From: Escherichia coli
GTDB taxonomy: Bacteria; Pseudomonadota; Gammaproteobacteria; Enterobacterales; Enterobacteriaceae
Reading direction: 5' to 3' (one strand)
Assembly (NCBI RefSeq): GCF_036507355.1
Contig: NZ_AP027877.1
DNA length: 64,000 nt
Each line of letters starts with the position of its first letter. Within the stretch, counting starts at the first letter, position 1. The position numbers and the translations under genes were made by a program. This document shows, piece after piece, positions 3,083-46,344 of this stretch. The notes under the pieces were generated by a model. That model saw only the letters and a list, made by a program, of their open reading frames with translations, did not search any database and was not told the DNA's origin.

Positions 3083-3807
3083 TGATTACCCTGAAAAATG
3101 TTTCAAAATGGTATGGTCACTTTCAGGTGCTGACCGACTGCTCAACCGAAGTGAAAAAAGGCGAAGTGGTGGTGGTTTGCGGCCCGTCTGGTTCCGGCAA
3201 ATCAACGCTGATTAAAACCGTCAACGGCCTCGAACCGGTGCAGCAAGGTGAAATCACCGTCGATGGTATCGTGGTTAACGACAAGAAAACCGATCTGGCA
3301 AAGCTGCGTTCCCGCGTCGGGATGGTATTCCAGCATTTCGAGCTGTTCCCTCATCTGTCGATTATCGAAAACCTGACCCTGGCGCAGGTGAAAGTGCTTA
3401 AACGCGATAAAGCACCCGCTCGTGAAAAAGCATTGAAATTGCTGGAGCGCGTGGGACTTTCCGCACATGCCAATAAATTTCCGGCACAGCTTTCCGGCGG
3501 TCAGCAGCAGCGTGTGGCGATCGCTCGCGCATTGTGTATGGATCCTATTGCCATGCTGTTCGACGAACCGACATCGGCGCTGGATCCGGAGATGATCAAC
3601 GAAGTGCTGGACGTAATGGTCGAACTGGCGAATGAAGGAATGACCATGATGGTGGTGACCCACGAAATGGGCTTTGCCCGTAAAGTGGCGAATCGGGTGA
3701 TCTTTATGGATGAGGGTAAAATTGTCGAAGACTCGCCGAAAGATGCGTTCTTCGATGATCCGAAATCGGACCGCGCAAAAGACTTCCTCGCGAAAATCCT
3801 GCATTAA
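3082..3807 (+). CDS. gltL: glutamate/aspartate ABC transporter ATP-binding protein
   Basis: 241 aa; Walker [13 protein letters not shown] signature LSGGQQQR, Walker [12 protein letters not shown]. Confidence 0.95.
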
Positions 3808-3924
3808 TCACTCTGGCGCGCATCCCCAAGTGCGCGCCATCTCACGCTTTATCGTTTCGCCCCTCGTATCTGTTACATCCTGGCGTTACCCTTGCCGCAA
3901 AGAAGCACACAACAAGGAGCAACA

Positions 3925-4860
3925 ATGGCACTGCCAATTCTGTTAGATTGCGACCCAGGTCATGATGACGCTATCGCAATAGTTCTCGCCCTCGCCTCAC
4001 CAGAGCTTGATGTCAAAGCAATTACGTCTTCCGCCGGAAACCAGACACCAGAAAAAACCTTACGCAATGTTCTGCGTATGCTGACCTTGCTTAATCGCAC
4101 CGATATTCCGGTAGCCGGCGGCGCAGTAAAACCGTTAATACGTGAGTTGATTATCGCGGACAATGTGCACGGCGAAAGCGGTCTCGACGGCCCGGCATTA
4201 CCGGAACCGGCGTTCGCACCGCAAAACTGTACGGCCGTAGAGCTAATGGCGAAAACGCTGCGTGAAAGTGCGGAACCTGTCACGATTGTGTCTACCGGAC
4301 CGCAAACTAACGTTGCCTTGCTGCTCAATAGCCATCCGGAACTGCATAGCAAAATTGCCCGTATCGTGATTATGGGTGGCGCTATGGGGCTGGGTAACTG
4401 GACGCCTGCGGCTGAATTTAATATTTACGTTGACCCGGAAGCGGCAGAAATTGTCTTCCAGTCAGGGATCCCGGTGGTGATGGCCGGTCTGGATGTTACT
4501 CACAAAGCACAAATCCACGTTGAAGACACTGAGCGTTTCCGCGCGATTGGCAACCCTGTTTCAACCATTGTTGCCGAACTGCTGGATTTCTTCCTCGAAT
4601 ATCATAAAGACGAAAAATGGGGCTTTGTCGGCGCACCGCTGCATGACCCATGCACCATCGCCTGGCTGTTGAAACCGGAGTTGTTTACCACTGTTGAGCG
4701 CTGGGTTGGCGTGGAAACACAAGGGAAATATACCCAGGGGATGACGGTTGTTGATTATTATTATCTGACTGGCAATAAACCGAATGCCACTGTAATGGTC
4801 GATGTTGATCGTCAGGGCTTTGTTGATTTACTGGCTGATCGTCTGAAATTTTACGCTTAA
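3925..4860 (+). CDS. rihA: pyrimidine-specific ribonucleoside hydrolase
   Basis: ORF 3892..4860; start refined to [16 protein letters not shown] (nucleoside hydrolase DxDxxxDD motif); 311 aa. Confidence 0.9.
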
Positions 4861-26702: not shown

Positions 26703-27114
26703 TTTCATACCTCAATGGCCCAATTTACACTGGGTCATTACTCATAACACCTGCTAATGCTTTACATCTCCTTCGCGTTTGTATATTTTCTTTATCACTT
26801 GCAGAAATGCGATGCTACGCCTTGCTCCGTAACTCACCCCATTGATTAACTTATTGAAATAGTTGATTATGATGAGCAAAAGCGTTCCGTTCCAATTAGA
26901 CATAAGATTATTGTAATTTTTTTAAATATTATTTTTCCATGAATAAAATTGGAGTAAGTGCGTGGATAGTAATAATTAAATTGAATCCTGTTTAAGCAGA
27001 AAATCGTCAGAAGGTAAACCACAAATATTTACAACCTTACGAAATATTGATCTTAATCTTCTGACTATTTTTGAAGCTGTATATGTACATAAAGGGATCG
27101 TTAATGCAGCGAAA

Positions 27115-27915
27115 GTGCTTAATCTGACCCCCTCGGCAATCAGTCAGTCTATTCAGAAACTGCGCGTTATATTCCCTGACCCATTGTTTATTCGCAAAGG
27201 CCAAGGTGTCACTCCTACCGCATTTGCGATGCATCTACATGAGTATATCAGTCAGGGCCTTGAGTCCATTCTTGGCGCGCTGGATATCGAAGGAAGCTAT
27301 GATAAGCAACGAACGATAACTATTGCGACCACCCCCTCGGTCGGAGCCCTGGTCCTTCCTGTCATTTATCGGGCGATTAAAACTCACTATCCGCAGCTTT
27401 TACTGCGCAACCCGCCCATCAGCGACGCGGAAAACCAACTCAGTCAGTTTCAAACCGATCTCATCATCGATAACATGTTTTGCACCAATCGTACGGTGCA
27501 ACATCATGTTCTGTTCACCGACAATATGGTGTTAATTTGCCGCGAGGGAAATCCACTACTCTCTTTAGAAGATGACAGAGAGACTATCGACAACGCTGCA
27601 CATGTACTCCTGTTACCGGAAGGACAAAATTTCAGCGTTCTGCGGCAGAGAATTCAAGAGATGTTTCCGGACCGGCAGATCAGCTTCACCAGCTACAACA
27701 TTTTGACAATCGCTGCACTGGTTGCCAACAGTGACATGTTAGCGATTATTCCCAGCCGTTTTTATAACCTGTTTAGCCGTTGCTGGCCGCTGGAAAAACT
27801 GCCTTTTCCGTCCTTAAATGAGGAGCAAATAGATTTCTCTATCCACTACAACAAATTCAGCCTGCGTGATCCCATCCTGCACGGAGTAATAGATGTTATC
27901 CGTAATGCATTTTGA
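27115..27915 (+). CDS. ybeF: LysR-family transcriptional regulator; N-terminus uncertain (HTH-coding sequence continues in frame upstream to an in-frame TAA at 26977..26979)
   Basis: ORF 27115..27915 (266 aa, GTG start); upstream in-frame sequence encodes the LysR HTH region ...TTLRNIDLNLLTIFEAVYVHKGIVNAAK. Confidence 0.6.
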   Translation: MLNLTPSAISQSIQKLRVIFPDPLFIRKGQGVTPTAFAMHLHEYISQGLESILGALDIEGSYDKQRTITIATTPSVGALVLPVIYRAIKTHYPQLLLRNPPISDAENQLSQFQTDLIIDNMFCTNRTVQHHVLFTDNMVLICREGNPLLSLEDDRETIDNAAHVLLLPEGQNFSVLRQRIQEMFPDRQISFTSYNILTIAALVANSDMLAIIPSRFYNLFSRCWPLEKLPFPSLNEEQIDFSIHYNKFSLRDPILHGVIDVIRNAF

Positions 27916-28123: not shown

Positions 28124-29089
28124 ATGAGTAAACCCATTGTGATGGAACGCGGTGTTAAATACCGCGATGCCGATAAGATGGCCCTTATCCCGGTTAAAAA
28201 CGTGGCAACAGAGCGCGAAGCCCTGCTGCGCAAGCCGGAATGGATGAAAATCAAGCTTCCAGCGGACTCTACACGTATCCAGGGCATCAAAGCCGCAATG
28301 CGCAAAAATGGCCTGCATTCTGTCTGCGAGGAAGCCTCCTGCCCTAACCTGGCGGAATGCTTCAACCACGGCACAGCAACGTTTATGATCCTCGGCGCTA
28401 TTTGTACCCGCCGTTGTCCGTTCTGTGACGTTGCCCACGGTCGCCCGGTAGCTCCTGATGCCAATGAACCAGTGAAACTGGCGCAGACCATTGCCGATAT
28501 GGCGCTGCGTTATGTGGTTATCACCTCCGTTGACCGTGATGACCTGCGCGATGGCGGTGCCCAGCACTTTGCGGATTGCATTACTGCCATTCGGGAAAAA
28601 AGCCCGCAAATCAAAATTGAAACTCTGGTGCCGGATTTCCGCGGTCGTATGGATCGTGCTCTGGATATTCTGACTGCAACGCCACCAGATGTGTTCAACC
28701 ATAACCTGGAAAACGTACCGCGTATTTACCGTCAGGTACGGCCTGGTGCAGATTACAACTGGTCGCTGAAGCTGCTGGAACGCTTTAAAGAAGCACATCC
28801 GGAAATCCCGACCAAGTCTGGTCTGATGGTGGGACTGGGTGAAACCAATGAAGAAATTATTGAGGTAATGCGCGACCTGCGCCGTCATGGTGTGACGATG
28901 TTAACGCTGGGGCAATATTTGCAGCCAAGCCGCCATCACCTGCCGGTTCAACGTTACGTTAGCCCGGATGAGTTCGACGAAATGAAAGCCGAAGCGCTGG
29001 CGATGGGCTTTACCCATGCTGCATGCGGTCCGTTTGTCCGCTCTTCTTACCACGCCGATTTGCAGGCGAAAGGGATGGAAGTTAAGTAA
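28124..29089 (+). CDS. lipA: lipoyl synthase
   Basis: 321 aa; radical-SAM CxxxCxxC (CTRRCPFC) plus N-terminal Cys cluster. Confidence 0.95.
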
Positions 29090-29120
29090 TCCTGTAATAA
29101 TTACTTACATCTGTCTGATA

Positions 29121-29149
29121 AAAAACCCGCTTTTTGAAGCGGGTTTTTT
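29121..29149. terminator. bidirectional rho-independent terminator between convergent lipA and tatE
   Basis: aaaaacccgctttttgaagcgggtttttt: stem-loop with A-run and T-run on either side. Confidence 0.75.
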
Positions 29150-29189
29150 GTATCGAACAAGATATTGAGGGAGCGTCCTGCTCGCCACG

Positions 29190-29393
29190 TCACTCTTTAT
29201 GAGAGAGCTTTTCAGCCTGAAGATCAACGTCTGCGCCTTTTTTCGCCGCAGCATCGTCATCATTCATCGCCTTCTTGAACCCTTTAATGGCCGCTCCAAG
29301 GTCTCCGCCCAGCGTACGTAACTTCTTAGTCCCAAACAGCAGAACGACCAGCGCCGCAACTACCAGCAGTTTGGTAATACTAATCTCACCCAT
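29190..29393 (-). CDS. tatE: twin-arginine translocase subunit TatE
   Basis: 67 aa; N-terminal TM helix [25 protein letters not shown] typical of TatA/E. Confidence 0.9.
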
Positions 29394-29521
29394 AGATACC
29401 TTCTTGACATATAACCGGCAACAGAACGCGCCTTAAAAACCAGAGAATATTAACGGTCATTCGACGCGCGCACACAATAGCAATCTGTAACAAGGTGAAT
29501 CAAGCGCCGAGTAAAAAAACA

Positions 29522-30316
29522 TCATAATAATTGCGGCGGCGCAAAGCGACGGTTGTTTAAGACGGGCAGTTGCGCGCGCACCTGACGCACACGTTCGGGC
29601 GTCACTTCCGCCATAATGAGTGCAGGCATTTCTGACGCTGCCGCAATGGTGACGCCAAAGGGATCTATAATCCGGCTTTGCCCGATATTTTTGTTCCCGC
29701 ACTCCCCCGCCGCCACCATATAACAGGTGGTATCCAGCGCACGAGCGGCAAGCAACGTTGACCAGTGATGCTCTTTGAGCGGCCCGCGAACCCAGGCGGC
29801 AGGAAGTGCCAGGATTTCAGCTCCCTGTAATGCCTGTGCCAGCGCCAGCTCTGGAAAGCGTAAGTCATAACAGGTCATCAGACCGACCTTCATCCCTTCC
29901 ACCTCCAGTAACGGAGCGATTTCATTACCAGCATCAACACGGCGTGATTCCTGAATGGCAAATGCATCATAGAGATGCAGTTTGGCATAACGGGCGACAA
30001 TGTTTCCTGCCTGTAGCGCCACCAGCATATTCCATGCGCGCCCCGGCGTTGAAGGAACATGAATCGTCAGAATTGTCGTCATCATGTTACGTTTACTTTC
30101 TCGCCGTAAACGTCCGAGGAATTCGCCTTCCAGCAGCTGTGCTGATTTAACCGATAGATCTGCATCATGATCATCGCGTGCCAGCAATGCTTCCGGCAGG
30201 ACAAACAGCGATACGTCGTTTTCCGCCGCCTGCGCCATCAACGAGGCACAAATCTCAGCGTTCTTTTCCCACACAGATGTAACAGCAAACTGTCCTGCAG
30301 CAACCAGCATTGCCAC
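29522..30316 (-). CDS. ybeM: C-N hydrolase (nitrilase superfamily) protein, apparently intact
   Basis: 264 aa uninterrupted ORF; catalytic Cys context [12 protein letters not shown]. Confidence 0.75.
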
Positions 30317-30402
30317 CTCCTGTCAGAGTCGTAAAATTCGCCAACGACGATTATTCGGCGTTACACTTATCACTCATACAAATCAAATAGCAGGATTTTG
30401 CA

Positions 30403-30786
30403 GTGTTACAACTTCTTTTAGCAGTTTTTATTGGCGGTGGTACGGGAAGCGTGGCGAGATGGCTGTTAAGTATGCGATTTAACCCGCTGCATCAGGCGAT
30501 TCCGTTGGGGACGCTGGCTGCAAATCTGATTGGGGCATTCATCATAGGAATGGGATTCGCCTGGTTCAGCAGGATGACAAACATTGATCCCGTGTGGAAA
30601 GTATTAATCACCACCGGATTTTGTGGCGGTCTTACAACCTTCTCAACATTTTCGGCAGAAGTGGTGTTTTTGTTACAAGAGGGCCGCTTTGGCTGGGCGT
30701 TACTGAACGTTTTCGTCAACCTTCTGGGGTCTTTTGCCATGACCGCACTGGCTTTCTGGCTGTTTTCGGCCTCAACCGCACACTAA
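30403..30786 (+). CDS. crcB: fluoride ion channel CrcB/FluC
   Basis: 127 aa, four hydrophobic helices. Confidence 0.9.
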
Positions 30787-30792
30787 AGACCA

Positions 30793-30821
30793 AAAAAAAC
30801 CCGCTGATTAAGCGGGTTTTG
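30793..30821. terminator. bidirectional rho-independent terminator between convergent crcB and cspE
   Basis: aaaaaaaacccgctgattaagcgggttttg. Confidence 0.75.
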
Positions 30822-30839
30822 AATTCTTGCTGACGTATC

Positions 30840-31049
30840 TTACAGAGCGATTACGTTTGCAGCAGAAGGGCCTTTGGCACCGTTAGTGATTTCGAACTCT
30901 ACGCGCTGACCTTCAGCAAGAGTTTTAAAACCATTAGTCTGGATTGCAGAGAAGTGTACGAACACGTCTTTGCTGCCGTCTTCCGGAGTAATGAAACCGA
31001 ATCCTTTGGACTCATTAAACCACTTAACGTTACCTTTAATCTTAGACAT
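30840..31049 (-). CDS. cspE: cold-shock-domain protein CspE
   Basis: ORF 30840..31133 trimmed to [20 protein letters not shown] (RNP1 motif); 69 aa. Confidence 0.92.
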
Positions 31050-31223
31050 CAAAATTACCTTTACATGAAAAATAGACACAAATGCTGTGTCGGTTACCAG
31101 TACACCAATTGTGGTACGCTTTGTCCAGTGCAACTTTACTAAAAAGTGATAAAAGTCGCGTTATTTTTGATGTTAATTATTTTACTCATTGATTTTAAAG
31201 AATTTACTAAAACTTCATTTGTC

Positions 31224-31714
31224 TCAAAACTGAAAGCGCATCCAGGCAAAGTACACATTACCATTGTTGTAGGTACCCGGAATATAGGTCATCTGAAAAG
31301 TCACTGGACCATAACCCACGGAGGCCAATGGCAGTAGAACCGGGAGAGGGATGTTATTCCAGTTATCACGTGCCGTTACGCCAGCGGTGAATCCCAGACC
31401 TAAATGAAAAGTTTCATCCGCCAGCGGTCGCCAGGTACTTTCCCATCCGTATCCGGCAATCGGTTCCCATTTGTTCCACGAGTCCTTAAATGCCATGGCA
31501 TACAGGCCATGCCAGTTTCCTTTTTCATCCCAACGCGACAGGCCAAAACCGCCACCCCACGGTCGCTCGTTATAGCGATCGGTTTTTTCTTTGTCGTAAG
31601 CGAAACGTGCATGCCAGGTGATGGCAGGAATATATAAATCATAATGTTCAGGCTGTTGCCAGGTTTGTGCAATATTTTCTCTAAACGTTGTCATCCACTC
31701 ATCTGCGTTAGCAA
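31224..31714 (-). pseudogene. pagP: lipid A palmitoyltransferase PagP, 5'-truncated: signal-peptide codons and promoter replaced by IS1
   Basis: Reading frame continues upstream of the ORF-track Met as ...[15 protein letters not shown] and runs straight into the IS1 terminus at 31715; first ~24 codons absent. Confidence 0.85.
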
Positions 31715-31729
31715 GGTAATGACTCCAAC

Positions 31730-32233
31730 TTATTGATAGTGTTTTATGTTCAGATAATGCCCGATGACTTTGTCATGCAGCTCCACCGATTTTGAGAACG
31801 ACAGCGACTTCCGTCCCAGTCGTGCCAGGTGCTGCCTCAGATTCAGGTTATGCCGCTCAATTCGCTGCGTATATCGCTTGCTGATTACGTGCAGCTTTCC
31901 CTTCAGGCGGGATTCATACAGCGGCCAGCCATCCGTCATCCATATCACCACGTCAAAGGGTGACAGCAGGCTCATAAGACGCCCCAGCGTCGCCATCGTG
32001 CGTTCACCGAATACGTGCGCAACAACCGTCTTCCGGAGCCTGTCATACGCGTAAAACAGCCAGCGCTGGCGCGATTTAGCCCCGACATAGCCCCACTGTT
32101 CGTCCATTTCCGCGCAGACGATGACGTCACTGCCCGGCTGTATGCGCGAGGTTACCGACTGCGGCCTGAGTTTTTTAAGTGACGTAAAATCGTGTTGAGG
32201 CCAACGCCCATAATGCGGGCTGTTGCCCGGCAT
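31730..32233 (-). CDS. insB: IS1 transposase InsB frame (InsAB' made by -1 frameshift)
   Basis: 167 aa ORF recognised as IS1 InsB. Confidence 0.9.
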
Positions 32234-32427
32234 CCAACGCCATTCATGGCCATATCAATGATTTTCTGGTGCGTACCGGGTTGAGAAGCGGTGTAAGTGA
32301 ACTGCAGTTGCCATGTTTTACGGCAGTGAGAGCAGAGATAGCGCTGATGTCCGGCGGTGCTTTTGCCGTTACGCACCACCCCGTCAGTAGCTGAACAGGA
32401 GGGACAGCTGATAGAAACAGAAGCCAC
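32152..32427 (-). CDS. insA: IS1 InsA transposition inhibitor/repressor
   Basis: 91 aa; [43 protein letters not shown] zinc-finger N-terminus. Confidence 0.92.
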
Positions 32428-32482
32428 TGGAGCACCTCAAAAACACCATCATACACTAAATCAGTAAGTTGGCAGCATCACC

Positions 32483-33848
32483 CCTTATTGGGGTTGTGGT
32501 TATTGTGGGTGTAGCTCGCTACATCATTAAAGGGTATTCCGCCACTGGCGTGTTATTTGTCGGTGGCCTGTTATTGCTGATTATCAGTGCCATTATGGGG
32601 CACAAAGTGTTACCGTCCAGCCAGGCTTCAACAGGCTACAGCGCCACGGATATTGTTGAATACGTTAAAATATTGCTAATGAGCCGCGGCGGCGACCTCG
32701 GCATGATGATTATGATGCTGTGTGGCTTTGCCGCTTACATGACCCATATCGGCGCGAATGATATGGTGGTCAAGCTGGCGTCAAAACCATTGCAGTATAT
32801 TAACTCCCCCTACCTGCTGATGATTGCCGCCTATTTTGTTGCCTGTCTGATGTCACTGGCCGTCTCTTCCGCAACCGGTCTGGGTGTTTTGCTGATGGCA
32901 ACCCTGTTTCCGGTGATGGTAAACGTTGGTATCAGTCGTGGGGCAGCAGCTGCCATTTGTGCCTCCCCGGCGGCGATTATTCTCGCACCGACTTCAGGGG
33001 ATGTGGTGCTGGCGGCGCAAGCTTCCGAAATGTCGCTGATTGACTTCGCCTTCAAAACGACGCTGCCTATCTCAATTGCTGCAATTATCGGCATGGCGAT
33101 CGCCCACTTCTTCTGGCAACGTTATCTGGATAAAAAAGAGCACATATCTCATGAAATGTTAGATGTCAGTGAAATAACCACCACTGCCCCTGCGTTTTAT
33201 GCCATTTTGCCGTTCACGCCGATCATCGGGGTGCTGATTTTTGACGGCAAATGGGGTCCGCAATTACACATCATCACTATTCTGGTGATTTGTATGCTGA
33301 TTGCCTCCATTCTGGAGTTCCTCCGCAGCTTTAATACCCAGAAAGTTTTCTCTGGTCTGGAAGTGGCTTATCGCGGGATGGCAGATGCATTTGCAAACGT
33401 GGTGATGCTGCTGGTTGCCGCTGGGGTATTCGCTCAGGGGCTTAGCACCATCGGCTTTATTCAAAGTCTGATTTCTATCGCTACCTCGTTTGGTTCGGCG
33501 AGTATCATCCTGATGCTGGTATTGGTGATTCTGACAATGCTGGCGGCAGTCACGACCGGTTCAGGCAATGCGCCGTTTTATGCGTTTGTTGAGATGATCC
33601 CGAAACTGGCGCACTCTTCCGGCATTAACCCGGCGTATTTGACTATCCCGATGCTGCAGGCGTCAAACCTGGGTCGTACCCTATCACCCGTTTCTGGCGT
33701 AGTCGTTGCGGTTGCCGGGATGGCGAAAATCTCACCATTTGAAGTCGTAAAACGCACCTCGGTGCCGGTGCTTGTTGGTTTGGTGATTGTTATCGTTGCT
33801 ACAGAGCTGATGGTGCCAGGAACGGCAGCAGCGGTCACAGGCAAGTAA
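32483..33848 (+). CDS. dcuC: anaerobic C4-dicarboxylate transporter DcuC, 5' end and promoter replaced by IS1 (possible fusion start inside IS1 end)
   Basis: ORF track 32469..33848 begins with TTG inside the IS1 terminal repeat; DcuC-like sequence from ...LIGVVVIVGVARYIIKGY onward. Confidence 0.7.
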
Positions 33849-33888
33849 ATAGTAATGCCGGAGGCAAGTTTCCTCCGGCTTTATCATG

Positions 33889-34569
33889 TCACCCACTGTG
33901 GTATATGCGTTGCGGTCTGCCAACTTTGCCGTGAACAATTTCAGCAATAATCAGATGGCGGCTGGCGCAATATTCAAGATAACGCCTGGCAGTGGTGCGG
34001 CTGATGGTCAGTGCCTGCGCCACTGTTTCTGCCGTATGTTGCACACCCGGCTCTTTGAACAGTTTTCGCACCGCGTTTAGCGTCAAAGGGTCAATGCCGG
34101 TCGGCAGTTCGTCTTTGGGTTCACCGCGAGCATAGGCATTAAACATCTCATCAATTTGCTTCTGGCTGGCGCTATCAATACTTTCCAGCATATGTTTACG
34201 CTGGCGGAAACGGGTTAGCGTTTGCCCCAGCCGTTCATAGGCAATTGGCTTAATGAGATAATCAAATACACCACAACGTACGGCTTCAGACACCGTTTCC
34301 ATATCGCTGGCTGCAGTGGTAAACACCACGTCGCCGGGATAATGCGCCTGCACCAGTTCATGCAGTAAATTAATCCCTCTACCGTCAGGAAGATAGTTAT
34401 CGAGCAAGATTAGCCCCGGCTTAAAACGCTCGATCATCATTCGGGCCTGCGCCAGGTTTCCCGCCAGTAATATCTGACTGAATCCGGGAATGTGACGAAT
34501 ATATTCCGCATGCATCTCTGCCAGCGGCGTTTCGTCCTCAACGATCAATAGGGTTAATGGAGCTGTCAT
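33889..34569 (-). CDS. dpiA: two-component response regulator DpiA (CitB)
   Basis: 226 aa; receiver domain LTLLIVEDE; C-terminal HTH. Confidence 0.9.
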   Translation of the reverse strand: MTAPLTLLIVEDETPLAEMHAEYIRHIPGFSQILLAGNLAQARMMIERFKPGLILLDNYLPDGRGINLLHELVQAHYPGDVVFTTAASDMETVSEAVRCGVFDYLIKPIAYERLGQTLTRFRQRKHMLESIDSASQKQIDEMFNAYARGEPKDELPTGIDPLTLNAVRKLFKEPGVQHTAETVAQALTISRTTARRYLEYCASRHLIIAEIVHGKVGRPQRIYHSG

Positions 34570-36196
34570 TAGGTTTCACTTTCGGAATATAGATTGAAAA
34601 TAAGGTACCGCAGGGATCATTATCTTCGAGAGTGATAACACCACCGCAGCGCGTTACGTAGCTGGCAATCAAGTACAACCCAATGCCATGTTCACCGGGC
34701 TCGTCAGCACGCGTACTGACCCCCTGCTCAAATATTTTGTCTCGTAGAGACTCTGGAACGCCGCAGCCCTGATCGGCGACTTCAATCACCACATCATCGC
34801 CTTCATCGCTGAGGAATAATTCAACGATCTTGTTTCCTTCATCGCTACGCAGGCTGGCTTCGAAGGCGTTATCAAGTAAATTTCCCACAATGGCGGCAAA
34901 CTCGGTGCTATCCAGTCCTGGCGGCAGTTGCGAAAGCTGGCTACCGGGGACGATGATCATTTTTAGCCCCAGTTCGCGGGCGCGCTGCACTTTACCAAAA
35001 AGCAGCCCCGCCACCTGGCGATCGGCAAACGCCTCGCGCAGGCTGTCAATAAGCTGTTGCTGGGCCTGAGACTCCCCCTGCACCATCGCCAGCACGCGAT
35101 CATACTCTTTCATCTGCAACAGACCATTGAGCGTCGACATCCAATTGAGATGCTCGTGTCGCAATGTACGAAGGCTCTCGACGTATTGTTTTATTTGCGT
35201 CAGTTGCGCATTGAGGGTGGAAATTTCGTCTTTACTACGAAAGCTGATAATGGCCCCCAGCAAATCATCACCTGAACGAATAGCTTCCCGATTGGCAATA
35301 ACGCTCAGACCGTTAAAGTTAGCCACCACATCCTGACGTTTTTCATCAATCTGTTCGGTAAAGAAATCGGCGGGCCTGACCACTTCAGCAATGGGTTTAC
35401 CCAACCATTGCCGTCCGGGGGAACTCAGCCCCAGCATCTTTCTTGCGTTACGATTGATGGCGGTAATGTAACCGTGCGGATCCACCGCAATCAGCCCTTC
35501 ATAAACCGAACTAAACAGCGCCTCTTGCTGACGGACCACGCGTGCGATTTGCTTTGGCTCCATGCCCATCATCTGCCGACGGATATGCGCGGCCAGGAAC
35601 CACGACAGCAACATCAGAATCCCTAACAGCACGACAAACACACCTGCCATCGGTAATAAAAACTCAGCCCGCCAGCTATCGATTTTACTCACCAGGTAGC
35701 CAATCGACACCACGCCGATGACTTTTCCATCGTCATCAAAGATTGGCGTTTTGGCGCGCATCGCCATACCCATTGACCCTTTCCCGGTAATGAAGTAGCT
35801 CTCCCCTTTCTCCAGCGCGCCCTGTTTGGTGAACTGCATAGGATAACCAATTTTCTCCGGATTAGGATGGTAAAGGCGGATCGAGTGCCGGTCGCCAATC
35901 ACCACATAATCAAAATCGGTATCTCTTTGTAATTTGTTAGCGATGGTCGCCAGCCGTTTGTAGTCACGCGTTTTCACCGTAGAGATGACACTGTCATTGG
36001 AGGCAATAATTTTCGCCTGATTCATTGCCATGTCGCGTACATGAAGCGTTAAATAGTCCTCAAAACTGGCCGTAAAATATTGCGCCAGGGCTGCAATGAC
36101 AAATATTGAGAACACCAGAATCAGCAAAAAGATACGCAGCGGAAATGCCAGTCTTTGGAAAAATGCAAACTGTTTATTCTCGTTAAGCTGCAACAT
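34538..36196 (-). CDS. dpiB: sensor histidine kinase DpiB (CitA)
   Basis: ORF 34538..36256 trimmed to MLQLNENKQFAFF; two TM helices, periplasmic domain, H-box and ATPase motifs; 552 aa. Confidence 0.88.
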   Translation of the reverse strand: MLQLNENKQFAFFQRLAFPLRIFLLILVFSIFVIAALAQYFTASFEDYLTLHVRDMAMNQAKIIASNDSVISTVKTRDYKRLATIANKLQRDTDFDYVVIGDRHSIRLYHPNPEKIGYPMQFTKQGALEKGESYFITGKGSMGMAMRAKTPIFDDDGKVIGVVSIGYLVSKIDSWRAEFLLPMAGVFVVLLGILMLLSWFLAAHIRRQMMGMEPKQIARVVRQQEALFSSVYEGLIAVDPHGYITAINRNARKMLGLSSPGRQWLGKPIAEVVRPADFFTEQIDEKRQDVVANFNGLSVIANREAIRSGDDLLGAIISFRSKDEISTLNAQLTQIKQYVESLRTLRHEHLNWMSTLNGLLQMKEYDRVLAMVQGESQAQQQLIDSLREAFADRQVAGLLFGKVQRARELGLKMIIVPGSQLSQLPPGLDSTEFAAIVGNLLDNAFEASLRSDEGNKIVELFLSDEGDDVVIEVADQGCGVPESLRDKIFEQGVSTRADEPGEHGIGLYLIASYVTRCGGVITLEDNDPCGTLFSIYIPKVKPNDSSINPIDR

Positions 36197-45105: not shown

Positions 45106-46344
45106 TCATATTGTTCCCCCCGGCATCGCATTCACCAGACCTGAAACCGCCTTCTGCGCCGCCTCTGCGCTTTGTGCACCGGGTACCAGAATCACCTTAC
45201 GGCACTCCTCTTCACGTTTTTCGAAAATCTCATATCCCCGGGCGGCCTCTTCAAACGGCATATAGTGGGTAACAATTTCTTCTGGTTTCAGTAATCCTTT
45301 CTCAATTAACGGTAATAATTCTCCCAGCCATGCGTGAACGTGGGTCTGTCCCATTTTAAACGTCAACCCTTTATCAAAGGCGTCGCCAAACAGGAAACCG
45401 TGAATAAATCCAGCGTAGACGCCCGGTACGCTAACAATGCCGCCACGCCTGACCGCCGCAATACACTGACGCAACGCTTTACCGCTGCTGCCCTCCAGTT
45501 TCAGGTTAGTCAGCACCGTTTCCGTGGTGCTGCCTTTCGCTTCAAAACCGACGGCGTCTATTACTGCATCCACGCCCCGGTGACCTGCCGTTTGTTCAAT
45601 AATTGACTGTGCCGGATCGCTATCTTCATCGAAATTAATCGGGATCGCGCCGTAGCGGTCAGCGGCGAAACGCAAGCGGTAGGGATGATGATCAACAACA
45701 AAAATCTGTTCCGCACCGAGCAACCGTGCACAGGCGATTGTCAACAATCCCACAGGACCAGCACCATAGACAGCAACGCTTGAACTTTGTTGGATCTGCG
45801 CATTTTTTGCTGCCTGCCATGCCGTTGGCAGAATATCAGAAAGGAAAAGGGCTTTATCATCTGAAAGCAAAGGCGGTACTTTAAACGGCCCCACATTCCC
45901 TTTAGGGACGCGGACATATTCCGCCTGCCCACCAGGAACGCCACCATACAGGTGACTATAACCAAACAATGCCGCGGGAGCTGGTATCTGTTTTTTATTG
46001 AGCGCAGCGCCTTTACCCGCATTGGTATTTTCGCAGGCGGCATATTACTGCATTCGACAGAAAAAACAGTCGCCACAAGCAATGACAAACGGAATTACCA
46101 CCCGGTCGCCTTTTTGCAAATTTTTTACGTCCTTTCCGGTTTCAACTACTTCCCCCATAAATTCATGACCAAAAATATCGCCATGTTTAACCTGGGGTAT
46201 TTTGCCTCGATAAAGATGGAGGTCAGAGCCACAGATCGCCGTTGCCGTAATACGCAGAATAATATCATCTGCCTGTTCAACGCCCGGATCGGGAACATTT
46301 TCTACCTGAACGTTATATGGGCCGTGATAAGTCAATGCTTTCAT
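45106..46344 (-). pseudogene. ybdR: Zn-dependent alcohol dehydrogenase-like oxidoreductase interrupted by an in-frame TAA at codon 100
   Basis: N-terminal ORF 46045..46344 (99 aa, ends ...[10 protein letters not shown]) and C-terminal ORF 45106..45969 are in the same frame; region between them translates without further stops ([32 protein letters not shown]); total 1239 bp. Confidence 0.8.

What the first reader, a model, noticed from the sequence alone, without database searches (positions are those of the whole stretch)
31224..33848. IS1 replaces the pagP-dcuC divergent promoter region and the 5' ends of both genes
Seen: a complete 768 bp IS1 (31715..32482) abuts the pagP reading frame, which lacks its first ~24 codons (the signal peptide), on one side and DcuC-like coding sequence lacking its initiator region on the other. 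The 9 bp flanking the two IS1 ends differ (cgttagcaa versus ccttattgg), so there is no target-site duplication. Established: simple IS1 insertion makes 8-9 bp target duplications, and IS1 promotes adjacent deletions. Inference: an IS1-mediated deletion removed the shared control region, inactivating PagP (no lipid A palmitoylation) and placing dcuC under IS1-derived signals.
Basis: partly seen in the sequence, partly recalled or inferred. Interest (0 to 1): 0.7.

Follow-up and report, generated by a model that had tools for sequence, protein, structure and literature searches.

The report
IS1-associated deletion disrupting pagP and dcuC
In this E. coli strain one copy of the mobile element IS1 has replaced 676 bp holding the starts and shared control region of two neighbouring genes, pagP (lipid A palmitoylation) and dcuC (succinate carrier); this is an ordinary, recent, strain-specific gene loss at a spot IS elements hit repeatedly.

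Summary
An intact 768-bp IS1 lies at 31715..32482. It is flanked by pagP lacking its first 70 nt and dcuC lacking its first 20 nt, and the flanks show no target-site duplication.

A near-identical relative (L008: 0 mismatches in 3269 bp on one flank, 4 in 9717 bp on the other) has the intact locus. The window has therefore lost 676 bp, including the whole 68% A+T intergenic control region, and lost it recently.

PagP is almost certainly null, because its promoter, ribosome-binding site, start codon and 23 of 25 signal-peptide codons are gone. The claim that dcuC runs on IS1-derived signals is not supported. No outward or hybrid promoter was found. The only in-frame start is a TTG inside the IS1 end with no Shine-Dalgarno sequence, although a database annotation accepts it (WP_338387754.1).

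In 13 complete E. coli genomes with IS1 in this neighbourhood, 10 are simple insertions with 8-9 bp duplications. Three are deletion alleles like this one, and two of those have pagP-side junctions within 7 bp of the window's. A K-12-like assembly carries the identical IS1-dcuC junction independently.

Verdict: a new allele of a well-known kind, an IS1-associated deletion at a local hot spot. Interest is low.

The parts
31224..31714 (-). pagP remnant: the last two bases of codon 24 through to the stop codon. This is the whole mature barrel coding sequence, but without promoter, RBS, start codon or 23 of the 25 signal-peptide codons. The longest ORF starts at Met31 (31694).
   Evidence: the K-12 PagP alignment runs from residue 18, but only residues 24-186 are pagP-encoded; 18-23 align to IS1-end sequence; NCBIfam PagP equivalog, profile 34-188 of 188; equals residues 7-162 of PDB chains 3GP6/1MM4
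31715..32482 (-). Complete IS1, 768 bp. The insB-distal inverted repeat (IRR, 31715..31737) abuts pagP. The insA-proximal inverted repeat (IRL, 32460..32482) abuts dcuC.
   Evidence: 99.5-99.6% identical to annotated IS1A-family copies
32152..32427 (-). insA, 91 aa
31730..32233 (-). insB' reading frame. The A6C -1 frameshift motif TTAAAAAAC lies at 32170..32178.
32448..32475 (-). Promoter-like site inside IRL that points inward toward insA. It is the only promoter-like site in or next to the IS1.
32483..33848 (+). dcuC remnant: third base of codon 7 through to the stop codon. It is 100% identical in protein to K-12 DcuC residues 8-461.
32469..32482 (+). In-frame TTG plus four codons (M-A-A-S-P) supplied by the IS1 end. 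They create a 459-aa fusion ORF that is recorded in databases as an intact DcuC.

Best explanation
A single IS1 now sits where 676 bp of chromosome used to be. The lost DNA held the 5' end of pagP, the whole divergent pagP-dcuC control region and the 5' end of dcuC.

Most likely route. IS1 first inserted at one of two local target hot spots, dcuC codon 7 or pagP codons 24-27. The resident copy then carried out an intramolecular transposition into the other hot spot. That deleted the DNA between the two sites and left one IS1 without a target duplication, which is the classical IS1 adjacent deletion.

Consequences.
- pagP is a null allele. The only available product is a leaderless, cytoplasmic 156-aa fragment, so lipid A cannot be palmitoylated.
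- dcuC has lost its own promoter region, ribosome-binding site and start codon, and is most likely silent or strongly under-expressed. Its coding sequence survives almost whole as a TTG-initiated fusion ORF.

Shown: the anatomy, the size and content of the loss, its recency, and the recurrence of junctions at these sites.
Inferred: the order of events, transposase involvement, and both phenotypes.
For: Structure and loss.

Empty site. L008 (Logan ERR3330519) has 0 mismatches in 3269 bp on the left flank and 4 in 9717 bp on the right. It carries intact 186-aa PagP and 461-aa DcuC.

Method control and precedent. Of 13 complete E. coli genomes with IS1 in this neighbourhood, 10 have perfect 8-9 bp duplications. 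Three lack a duplication and have lost DNA: tcmA_3 (1493 bp), MB51 (609 bp) and PSS-15 (the 459-bp estimate for PSS-15 is unreliable because its right flank mapped poorly, and its deletion reaches dpiB).

Hot spots.
- pagP-side deletion junctions fall at K-12 656627 (window), 656629 (tcmA_3) and 656634 (MB51).
- Other IS elements sit at 656632-41 in L027.
- 9 of 11 IS1 junctions in pagP fall in its first 140 nt (P = 1.2e-4 if uniform).
- The identical IS1-IRL|CCTTATTGG junction occurs in a K-12-like assembly. It is 99.98% identical to MG1655 but only 98.7% to the window, and the first difference is 67 bp from the junction.

Other points.
- tcmA_3 and PSS-15 share one IS1 site in dcuC (9-bp GCTGATTGC), with deletions running in opposite directions from it.
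- PagP signal peptide: the solved mature protein starts at N26.
- No outward promoter and no Shine-Dalgarno sequence.
- Literature: missing duplications are explained by adjacent deletion or IS-IS recombination (PMC11708052).
Against: - The product cannot distinguish intramolecular transposition from IS1-IS1 recombination or from a one-step insertion-plus-deletion.
- No expression data exist. NCBI's pipeline accepted the 459-aa ORF as DcuC, and it scores 881 bits against the DcuC equivalog, whose cut-off is 513. A functional protein is therefore possible if any transcript reads out of IS1.
- Only 64 kb of the genome was visible, so a second pagP or dcuC copy elsewhere is not excluded.
- The window's own double junction was not found in any independent assembly of the same lineage.
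Confidence: 0.8

Rival explanations
1. Two independent IS1 insertions in the same orientation, one in pagP codon 24 and one in dcuC codon 7, were followed by RecA-dependent recombination between the two copies. This removed one IS1 and the 676 bp between them. The end product and phenotypes are the same; only the route differs.
For: Both junctions coincide with, or lie within 7 bp of, sites used independently by IS1 in other lineages. This is what two separate insertions at hot spots would give. IS-IS recombination is a documented cause of missing duplications (PMC11708052). A near-identical sister strain shows a further IS1 junction in dcuC (L009), so IS1 is active in this lineage.
Against: It needs three events rather than two. 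None of the 13 complete genomes, nor the other loci inspected, shows the predicted intermediate with two IS1 copies in this locus. Target hot spots are equally expected under intramolecular transposition.
Confidence: 0.35
2. One reading: the gene stays active, transcribed and translated from IS1-derived signals as the 459-aa MAASP-DcuC fusion. It would then be expressed constitutively rather than under anaerobic control.
For: An in-frame TTG in the IS1 end gives a 459-aa ORF identical to DcuC from residue 8 onward. It passes the NCBIfam DcuC equivalog cut-off and is annotated as DcuC (WP_338387754.1). The same junction recurs in a second lineage, which could reflect selection. A review tabulates IS1 as forming fusion promoters (PMC9330008).
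Against: No + strand promoter-like site was found at 9/12 or 8/12 matches. The -35-like TTGGCA overlaps the TTG itself, so a hybrid promoter would start the mRNA downstream of that start codon. There is no Shine-Dalgarno sequence within 25 nt upstream. The review does not list the IS1 family among those with confirmed complete outward promoters. The recurrence is equally explained by a target hot spot.
Confidence: 0.2
3. Assembly artefact: the real genome has two IS1 copies flanking the 676-bp segment, or an intact locus, and the assembler collapsed the repeat.
For: IS1 is a multicopy repeat, and the window's double junction was not seen in an independent assembly of the same lineage.
Against: The join is between immediate neighbours in correct order and orientation, with clean IS1 ends at both sides. 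Comparable deletion alleles exist in three finished genomes. The identical right junction was assembled independently in two other data sets. The protein is recorded on a 4,643,937-bp contig, which implies a finished chromosome. Even under this rival, both genes would still be interrupted by IS1.
Confidence: 0.03
4. The allele is adaptive. Loss of PagP, or of the PhoP- and anaerobiosis-responsive control region, is selected repeatedly in natural E. coli, and IS1 is merely the commonest mutagen.
For: Thirteen pagP-affecting IS alleles were seen (11 IS1 junctions inside the gene; IS1 in MB51 and other ISs in L027). IS5 insertions in the dcuC/pagP intergenic region recurred in K-12 under kanamycin selection (PMC6307192). 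Adaptive pagP loss is reported for Yersinia pestis (my own recollection, not checked here).
Against: Only about 0.2% of 5426 complete genomes carry such IS1 alleles. The junctions cluster in the A+T-rich 5' end of pagP rather than across the gene, which points to target preference rather than selection for any knockout. Near-identical relatives keep the locus intact.
Confidence: 0.12

Closest known systems
Classical IS1-promoted adjacent deletions (e.g. from gal::IS1; my own knowledge) and the general category of IS copies that lack target duplications (PMC11708052)
   Same: One IS copy is retained. DNA is lost contiguously from one IS end. No target duplication remains. IS orientation is preserved.
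   Different: The order of events and transposase dependence were not observed here. The deletion is short (676 bp) and both ends lie at sites IS1 uses recurrently.
Natural E. coli alleles tcmA_3 (NZ_CP059835.1) and MB51 (NZ_CP073946.1)
   Same: IS1 is in the same orientation. The pagP-side junctions lie 2 and 7 bp from the window's. There is no duplication, and the pagP 5' end and intergenic region are deleted.
   Different: The dcuC-side end points differ. tcmA_3 loses 1493 bp and most of dcuC. MB51 loses 609 bp and keeps dcuC intact with 55 bp of upstream sequence. These are independent events in other lineages.
K-12-like assembly GCA_045080605.1 (contig DBBYGY010000040.1)
   Same: It has the identical IS1-IRL|CCTTATTGG junction and the identical 459-aa fusion ORF.
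   Different: The genetic background differs (99.98% identical to MG1655, 98.7% to the window). The contig starts inside IS1, so the pagP side is unknown.
IS5 in dcuC of K-12 W3110, and IS5 in the dcuC/pagP intergenic region of evolved K-12
   Same: Same locus, hit by insertion sequences in laboratory lineages (PMC2072959; PMC6307192).
   Different: A different IS family, simple insertions, no deletion of both gene starts.

Membership tests
IS1 (IS1 family insertion sequence) | About 768 bp with ~23-bp imperfect terminal inverted repeats beginning GGT(A/G)ATG | tested here: met
   768 bp; 23-nt arms, 78% complementary; each end unique in the window
IS1 (IS1 family insertion sequence) | insA and insB' frames joined by an A6C -1 frameshift site; transposase matches the IS1 model | tested here: met
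   ORFs of 91 and 167 aa; TTAAAAAAC motif present; NF033558 covered at positions 1-81 and 75-199 of 199
IS1 (IS1 family insertion sequence) | 8-9 bp direct target-site duplication at a simple insertion | tested here: not met
   Flanks are CGTTAGCAA and CCTTATTGG. This does not argue against IS1 identity; it shows the copy is not at a simple insertion.
IS-associated (adjacent) deletion | Contiguous loss of DNA, relative to an otherwise identical empty site, bounded by an IS end with no duplication | tested here: met
   676 bp missing relative to L008, whose flanks are 99.96-100% identical
IS-associated (adjacent) deletion | Formation depends on the transposase (intramolecular transposition) rather than on homologous recombination | not testable with these tools
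   Both routes give the same sequence. No polymorphism inside the IS1 was informative.
PagP, lipid IV(A) palmitoyltransferase (functional gene) | Full-length precursor with start codon and Sec signal peptide ahead of the beta-barrel | tested here: not met
   Codons 1-23 and one further nucleotide are absent. The barrel matches profile positions 34-188 of 188 and PDB chain residues 7-162.
DcuC, anaerobic C4-dicarboxylate carrier (functional gene) | Native start codon, RBS and upstream control region | tested here: not met
   20 nt of the CDS plus all 588 bp upstream are absent. The body matches the equivalog at positions 8-454 of 455.
IS1 fusion (hybrid) promoter | A -35 hexamer in the IS1 end, 16-18 nt from a -10 hexamer in the flank, facing the adjacent gene | tested here: not met
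   No + strand site at 9/12 matches or 8/12 matches. These are consensus scans only; promoter activity was not measured.

The most novel reading that the evidence does not exclude
pagP codons 24-27 and dcuC codon 7 are nucleotide-precise IS1 hot spots. The repeated natural loss of PhoP-controlled lipid A palmitoylation, together with the anaerobic dcuC control region, is convergent and selected in some E. coli niches rather than being neutral decay.
Probability: 0.12. Interest if true: 0.45.

Novelty: new member of a known kind. Interest (0 to 1): 0.2.

Why it matters
For this strain, it predicts no hepta-acylated (palmitoylated) lipid A, loss of PhoP-responsive outer-membrane remodelling, and probably loss of DcuC-mediated succinate efflux. 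Neither gene is known to me to be essential.

More broadly, it is a clean worked example of three points. First, a missing target duplication flags a deletion. Second, the A+T-rich pagP-dcuC control region and the pagP leader are recurrent IS landing sites in E. coli. Third, automatic annotation can report an intact DcuC whose first five codons are IS1 end sequence (WP_338387754.1). None of this changes current understanding of IS1, PagP or DcuC.

Tried and rejected
- E. coli B as the source: rejected. BL21(DE3) has a pagP that had to be deleted experimentally (PMC11253626), and no complete E. coli genome shares the double junction.
- Shigella as the source (suggested by only 99.4% best identity to 5426 genomes): not supported. 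The window holds a single IS. 59 of the 60 other complete K-12 genes align full length, collinear and gap-free without an internal stop; the exception is ybdR. S. flexneri 301 has a PhoP-bound pagP promoter. Near-identical short-read relatives are rare (14 contigs).
- Left-junction scan of GTDB representative genomes: 0 hits.
- Exact look-up of the window's 156-aa PagP fragment: not on record. The K-12 version is on record in 479 blocks, but mostly as a gene-caller start choice at intact loci, so it was uninformative apart from two further IS alleles.
- Literature search for the sample accessions: nothing found.
- The junction hairpin ACCCC-TTATT-GGGGT, flagged as terminator-like: no more stable than shuffled sequence (z = -0.6).
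- Rfam scan of 29000..35000: only the cspE leader matched, and no known RNA gene is annotated in the deleted interval of K-12.
- The two PagP substitutions relative to K-12 (N to T, Y to N) are not post-inactivation decay, because the left flank is 100% identical to the intact relative L008.
Full report
**1. What is in the sequence**

The window is an E. coli chromosomal segment collinear with K-12 from gltI to fepB, in reverse orientation. I compared 62 K-12 proteins with it by tblastn. Sixty align full length without gaps, fepB runs off the window end, and only PagP and DcuC are truncated internally.

Between them lies a 768-bp IS1 at 31715..32482.
- It has 23-nt imperfect terminal inverted repeats, each found once in the window and never in shuffles.
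- insA (32152..32427) and the insB' frame (31730..32233) lie on the - strand, with the A6C frameshift motif at 32170..32178.
- Both ORFs match the NCBIfam IS1 transposase model, and the element looks intact.
- The insA-proximal end (IRL) abuts dcuC. The other end (IRR) abuts pagP, so the transposase frames run in the same direction as pagP.

**2. What is missing**

Mapping 60 nt of each flank onto MG1655 gives exact matches that are 678 bp apart (NC_000913.3 655949-656626). The missing DNA is 70 nt of pagP (23 codons + 1 nt), the entire 588-bp intergenic region, and 20 nt of dcuC (6 codons + 2 nt).

The flanking 9-mers, CGTTAGCAA and CCTTATTGG, are unrelated.

**3. The empty site, and the age of the event**

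No complete RefSeq E. coli genome (5426 genomes) has the same double junction. The best identity of the 19.5 kb to the right is only 99.4%, so the lineage is poorly represented among finished genomes.

An exact look-up of the window's DpiB protein found 14 contigs. One of them, L008 (Logan ERR3330519), has 0 mismatches in 3269 bp on the pagP side and 4 in 9717 bp on the dcuC side. It carries an intact 186-aa pagP, a 461-aa dcuC and the intergenic region.

Relative to L008 the window lacks 676 bp (32% G+C), and no trace of that segment occurs elsewhere in the window. The event is therefore recent and specific to this strain or clone. The two PagP amino-acid differences from K-12 are lineage polymorphisms, not decay.

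A second near-identical relative, L009 (SRR31122001, 2 mismatches in 9492 bp), has a contig that ends in an IS1 IRR inside dcuC. The position is equivalent to window 32705/32706, and the IS1 is in the opposite orientation. IS1 is evidently active in this lineage and has hit dcuC more than once.

**4. How unusual is an IS1 here?**

Thirteen complete genomes have IS1 in this neighbourhood (pagP, the intergenic region, dcuC or next to cspE), in the orientation that my query could join. I fetched all thirteen and mapped both junctions onto K-12.
- Ten are simple insertions with perfect 8- or 9-bp duplications. This also validates the junction-mapping script.
- Three have no duplication and have lost DNA: tcmA_3 (1493 bp), MB51 (609 bp) and PSS-15 (about 459 bp by the script, but its right flank mapped poorly and the deletion reaches dpiB).
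- The pagP-side junctions of the deletion alleles lie at K-12 656627 (window), 656629 (tcmA_3) and 656634 (MB51). These are three independent events within 8 bp.
- Another genome has other IS elements inserted at 656632-41, and two loci share an oppositely oriented IS1 at 656570-78.
- Of 11 IS1 junctions inside pagP, 9 lie in the first 140 of its 561 nt (binomial P = 1.2e-4 against uniformity). Some of these may not be independent. That stretch, like the intergenic region, is about 69% A+T.
- tcmA_3 and PSS-15 share one IS1 site in dcuC (9-mer GCTGATTGC), with deletions running in opposite directions from it. This is the pattern expected when a resident IS1 sheds adjacent DNA.

**5. The dcuC junction recurs exactly**

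The 459-aa ORF that begins at a TTG inside the IS1 end is on record as WP_338387754.1 / HGG2576320.1. It was seen on three contigs, the longest of which is 4,643,937 bp. That longest contig is probably the source chromosome, although I could not confirm this.

One of the contigs, L020 (GCA_045080605.1), has the identical IS1-IRL|CCTTATTGG junction. However, it is 99.98% identical to MG1655 and only 98.7% identical to the window. It has 26 differences inside dcuC, the first only 67 bp from the junction.

So the same nucleotide and orientation were used independently in two lineages, which marks a target hot spot. The contig begins inside IS1, so its pagP side is unknown.

**6. Mechanism**

An IS copy without a duplication that sits at a deletion is conventionally explained in one of two ways. 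Either the resident IS performed an intramolecular transposition (adjacent deletion), or two IS copies recombined. A one-step insertion-with-deletion has also been proposed (PMC11708052). All of these leave the same sequence, and I could not separate them.

I favour insertion at one hot spot followed by intramolecular transposition into the other.
- It needs two events rather than three.
- Deletion alleles are common in this neighbourhood (3 of 13), whereas the two-copy intermediate was never seen.
- IS1 is the classical producer of adjacent deletions (my own knowledge).

I give roughly 0.55 to this route, 0.35 to IS1-IS1 recombination and 0.1 to a one-step event. These are sub-routes of the same outcome.

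**7. Consequence for pagP**

The remnant retains the whole mature barrel. It matches NCBIfam PagP profile positions 34-188 of 188. From Met31 it equals residues 7-162 of the crystallised mature protein, whose chain begins at the post-cleavage N-terminus.

It has lost its promoter region, RBS, start codon and 23 of 25 signal-peptide codons. Upstream PhoP binding has been shown for the S. flexneri orthologue (PMC5775216).

The longest ORF starts at Met31 and is in a different frame from insB'. A leaderless beta-barrel cannot reach the outer membrane (established knowledge), so PagP is null with high confidence.

**8. Consequence for dcuC**

The coding sequence is 100% identical to K-12 DcuC from residue 8 onward. 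IS1 supplies an in-frame TTG (32469) and four codons, so MAASP replaces MLTFIEL.

Nothing supports expression.
- The tool found no + strand promoter-like site in 30800..33000; the only site near the junction is IS1's own inward insA promoter.
- My relaxed 8/12 scan of 32100..32560 also found none.
- The -35-like TTGGCA in IRL overlaps the TTG itself and has no -10 partner. Any fusion promoter of the kind a review tabulates for IS1 (PMC9330008) would therefore start the mRNA downstream of the start codon.
- No Shine-Dalgarno sequence precedes the TTG, and the native GGAG/AGGA RBS was deleted.

I therefore rate dcuC as silent or strongly under-expressed (about 0.7). The database entry that calls this ORF an intact DcuC reflects a start codon assigned by the annotation pipeline, not evidence of expression.

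**9. Surroundings**

cspE and its leader are untouched. The leader gives an Rfam cspA-thermoregulator match at 30792..31234 that overlaps the pagP stop codon. dpiA and dpiB are full length. No known RNA gene is annotated in the deleted interval of K-12.

**10. Comparison with what is known, and verdict**

This is a new allele of a very familiar kind. IS hits in this locus are already documented in laboratory K-12: IS5 in dcuC of W3110 (PMC2072959), and IS5 in the dcuC/pagP intergenic region under kanamycin selection (PMC6307192). Natural deletion alleles of the same design exist in finished genomes.

The only mildly interesting points are the nucleotide-level recurrence of the junctions and the annotation artefact. 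Interest is 0.2. The most novel reading still open is convergent selection for loss of PagP or of the control region. I give it about 0.12, because the junctions track A+T-rich DNA rather than spreading over the gene, the alleles are rare (about 0.2% of genomes), and sister strains keep the locus intact.

Noticed in passing
window 46045..46047 (ybdR, - strand, 45106..46344): ybdR aligns full length to K-12 (98.3%) but has an in-frame stop at codon 100, so it is probably a point-mutation pseudogene in this strain.
   Followed up: partly
window 26962..27915 (ybeF, + strand): At the K-12 ybeF start the window has GTG, followed by a stop at codon 6 (26977..26979). The longest ORF starts at GTG 27115 and gives 266 aa instead of 317. 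This is either a shortened gene or a pseudogene.
   Followed up: partly
window 29522..30316 (- strand): ybeM (deaminated glutathione amidase) is an intact 264-aa ORF here, whereas it is annotated as a pseudogene in K-12 MG1655.
   Followed up: no
L009 9493..9518 (SRR31122001; equivalent to window 32705/32706): A strain 99.98% identical to the window has a contig ending in an IS1 IRR inside dcuC. The position and orientation differ from the window's, so this is a separate IS1 event in a sister strain.
   Followed up: partly
L020 1..140 (GCA_045080605.1, contig DBBYGY010000040.1): A K-12-like assembly carries exactly the same IS1-IRL|dcuC junction and the same 459-aa fusion ORF as the window, despite 1.3% flank divergence. 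The pagP side is unknown because the contig starts inside IS1.
   Followed up: partly
L001 (tcmA_3) 3214..3981 and L010 (PSS-15) 3216..3983: Two finished genomes have IS1 at the same dcuC site (9-mer GCTGATTGC, K-12 655127-35). One has a deletion toward pagP and the other a deletion toward dpiA/dpiB. This is as expected if a shared or hot-spot insertion shed DNA on either side.
   Followed up: partly
window 32469..32483; database protein WP_338387754.1: A RefSeq/TPA protein named as an intact DcuC takes its first five residues (MAASP) from the IS1 terminal inverted repeat. The start codon is a pipeline call without RBS support.
   Followed up: yes
window 30792..31234 (- strand): An Rfam cspA-thermoregulator match (127.6 bits) covers the cspE leader and coding region. 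Its 5' end overlaps the last 11 nt of pagP, so cspE signals begin inside the pagP 3' end and are untouched by the IS1 event.
   Followed up: no
L027 720..2995 (GCA_963281225.1) and L025 2156..2923 (OZ040088.1): Further IS alleles of pagP turned up. In L027, two non-IS1 transposase genes are inserted at K-12 656632-41. In L025, an oppositely oriented IS1 sits at codons 5-8 with a 9-bp duplication, and the same junction appears in a metagenome contig (L030).
   Followed up: partly
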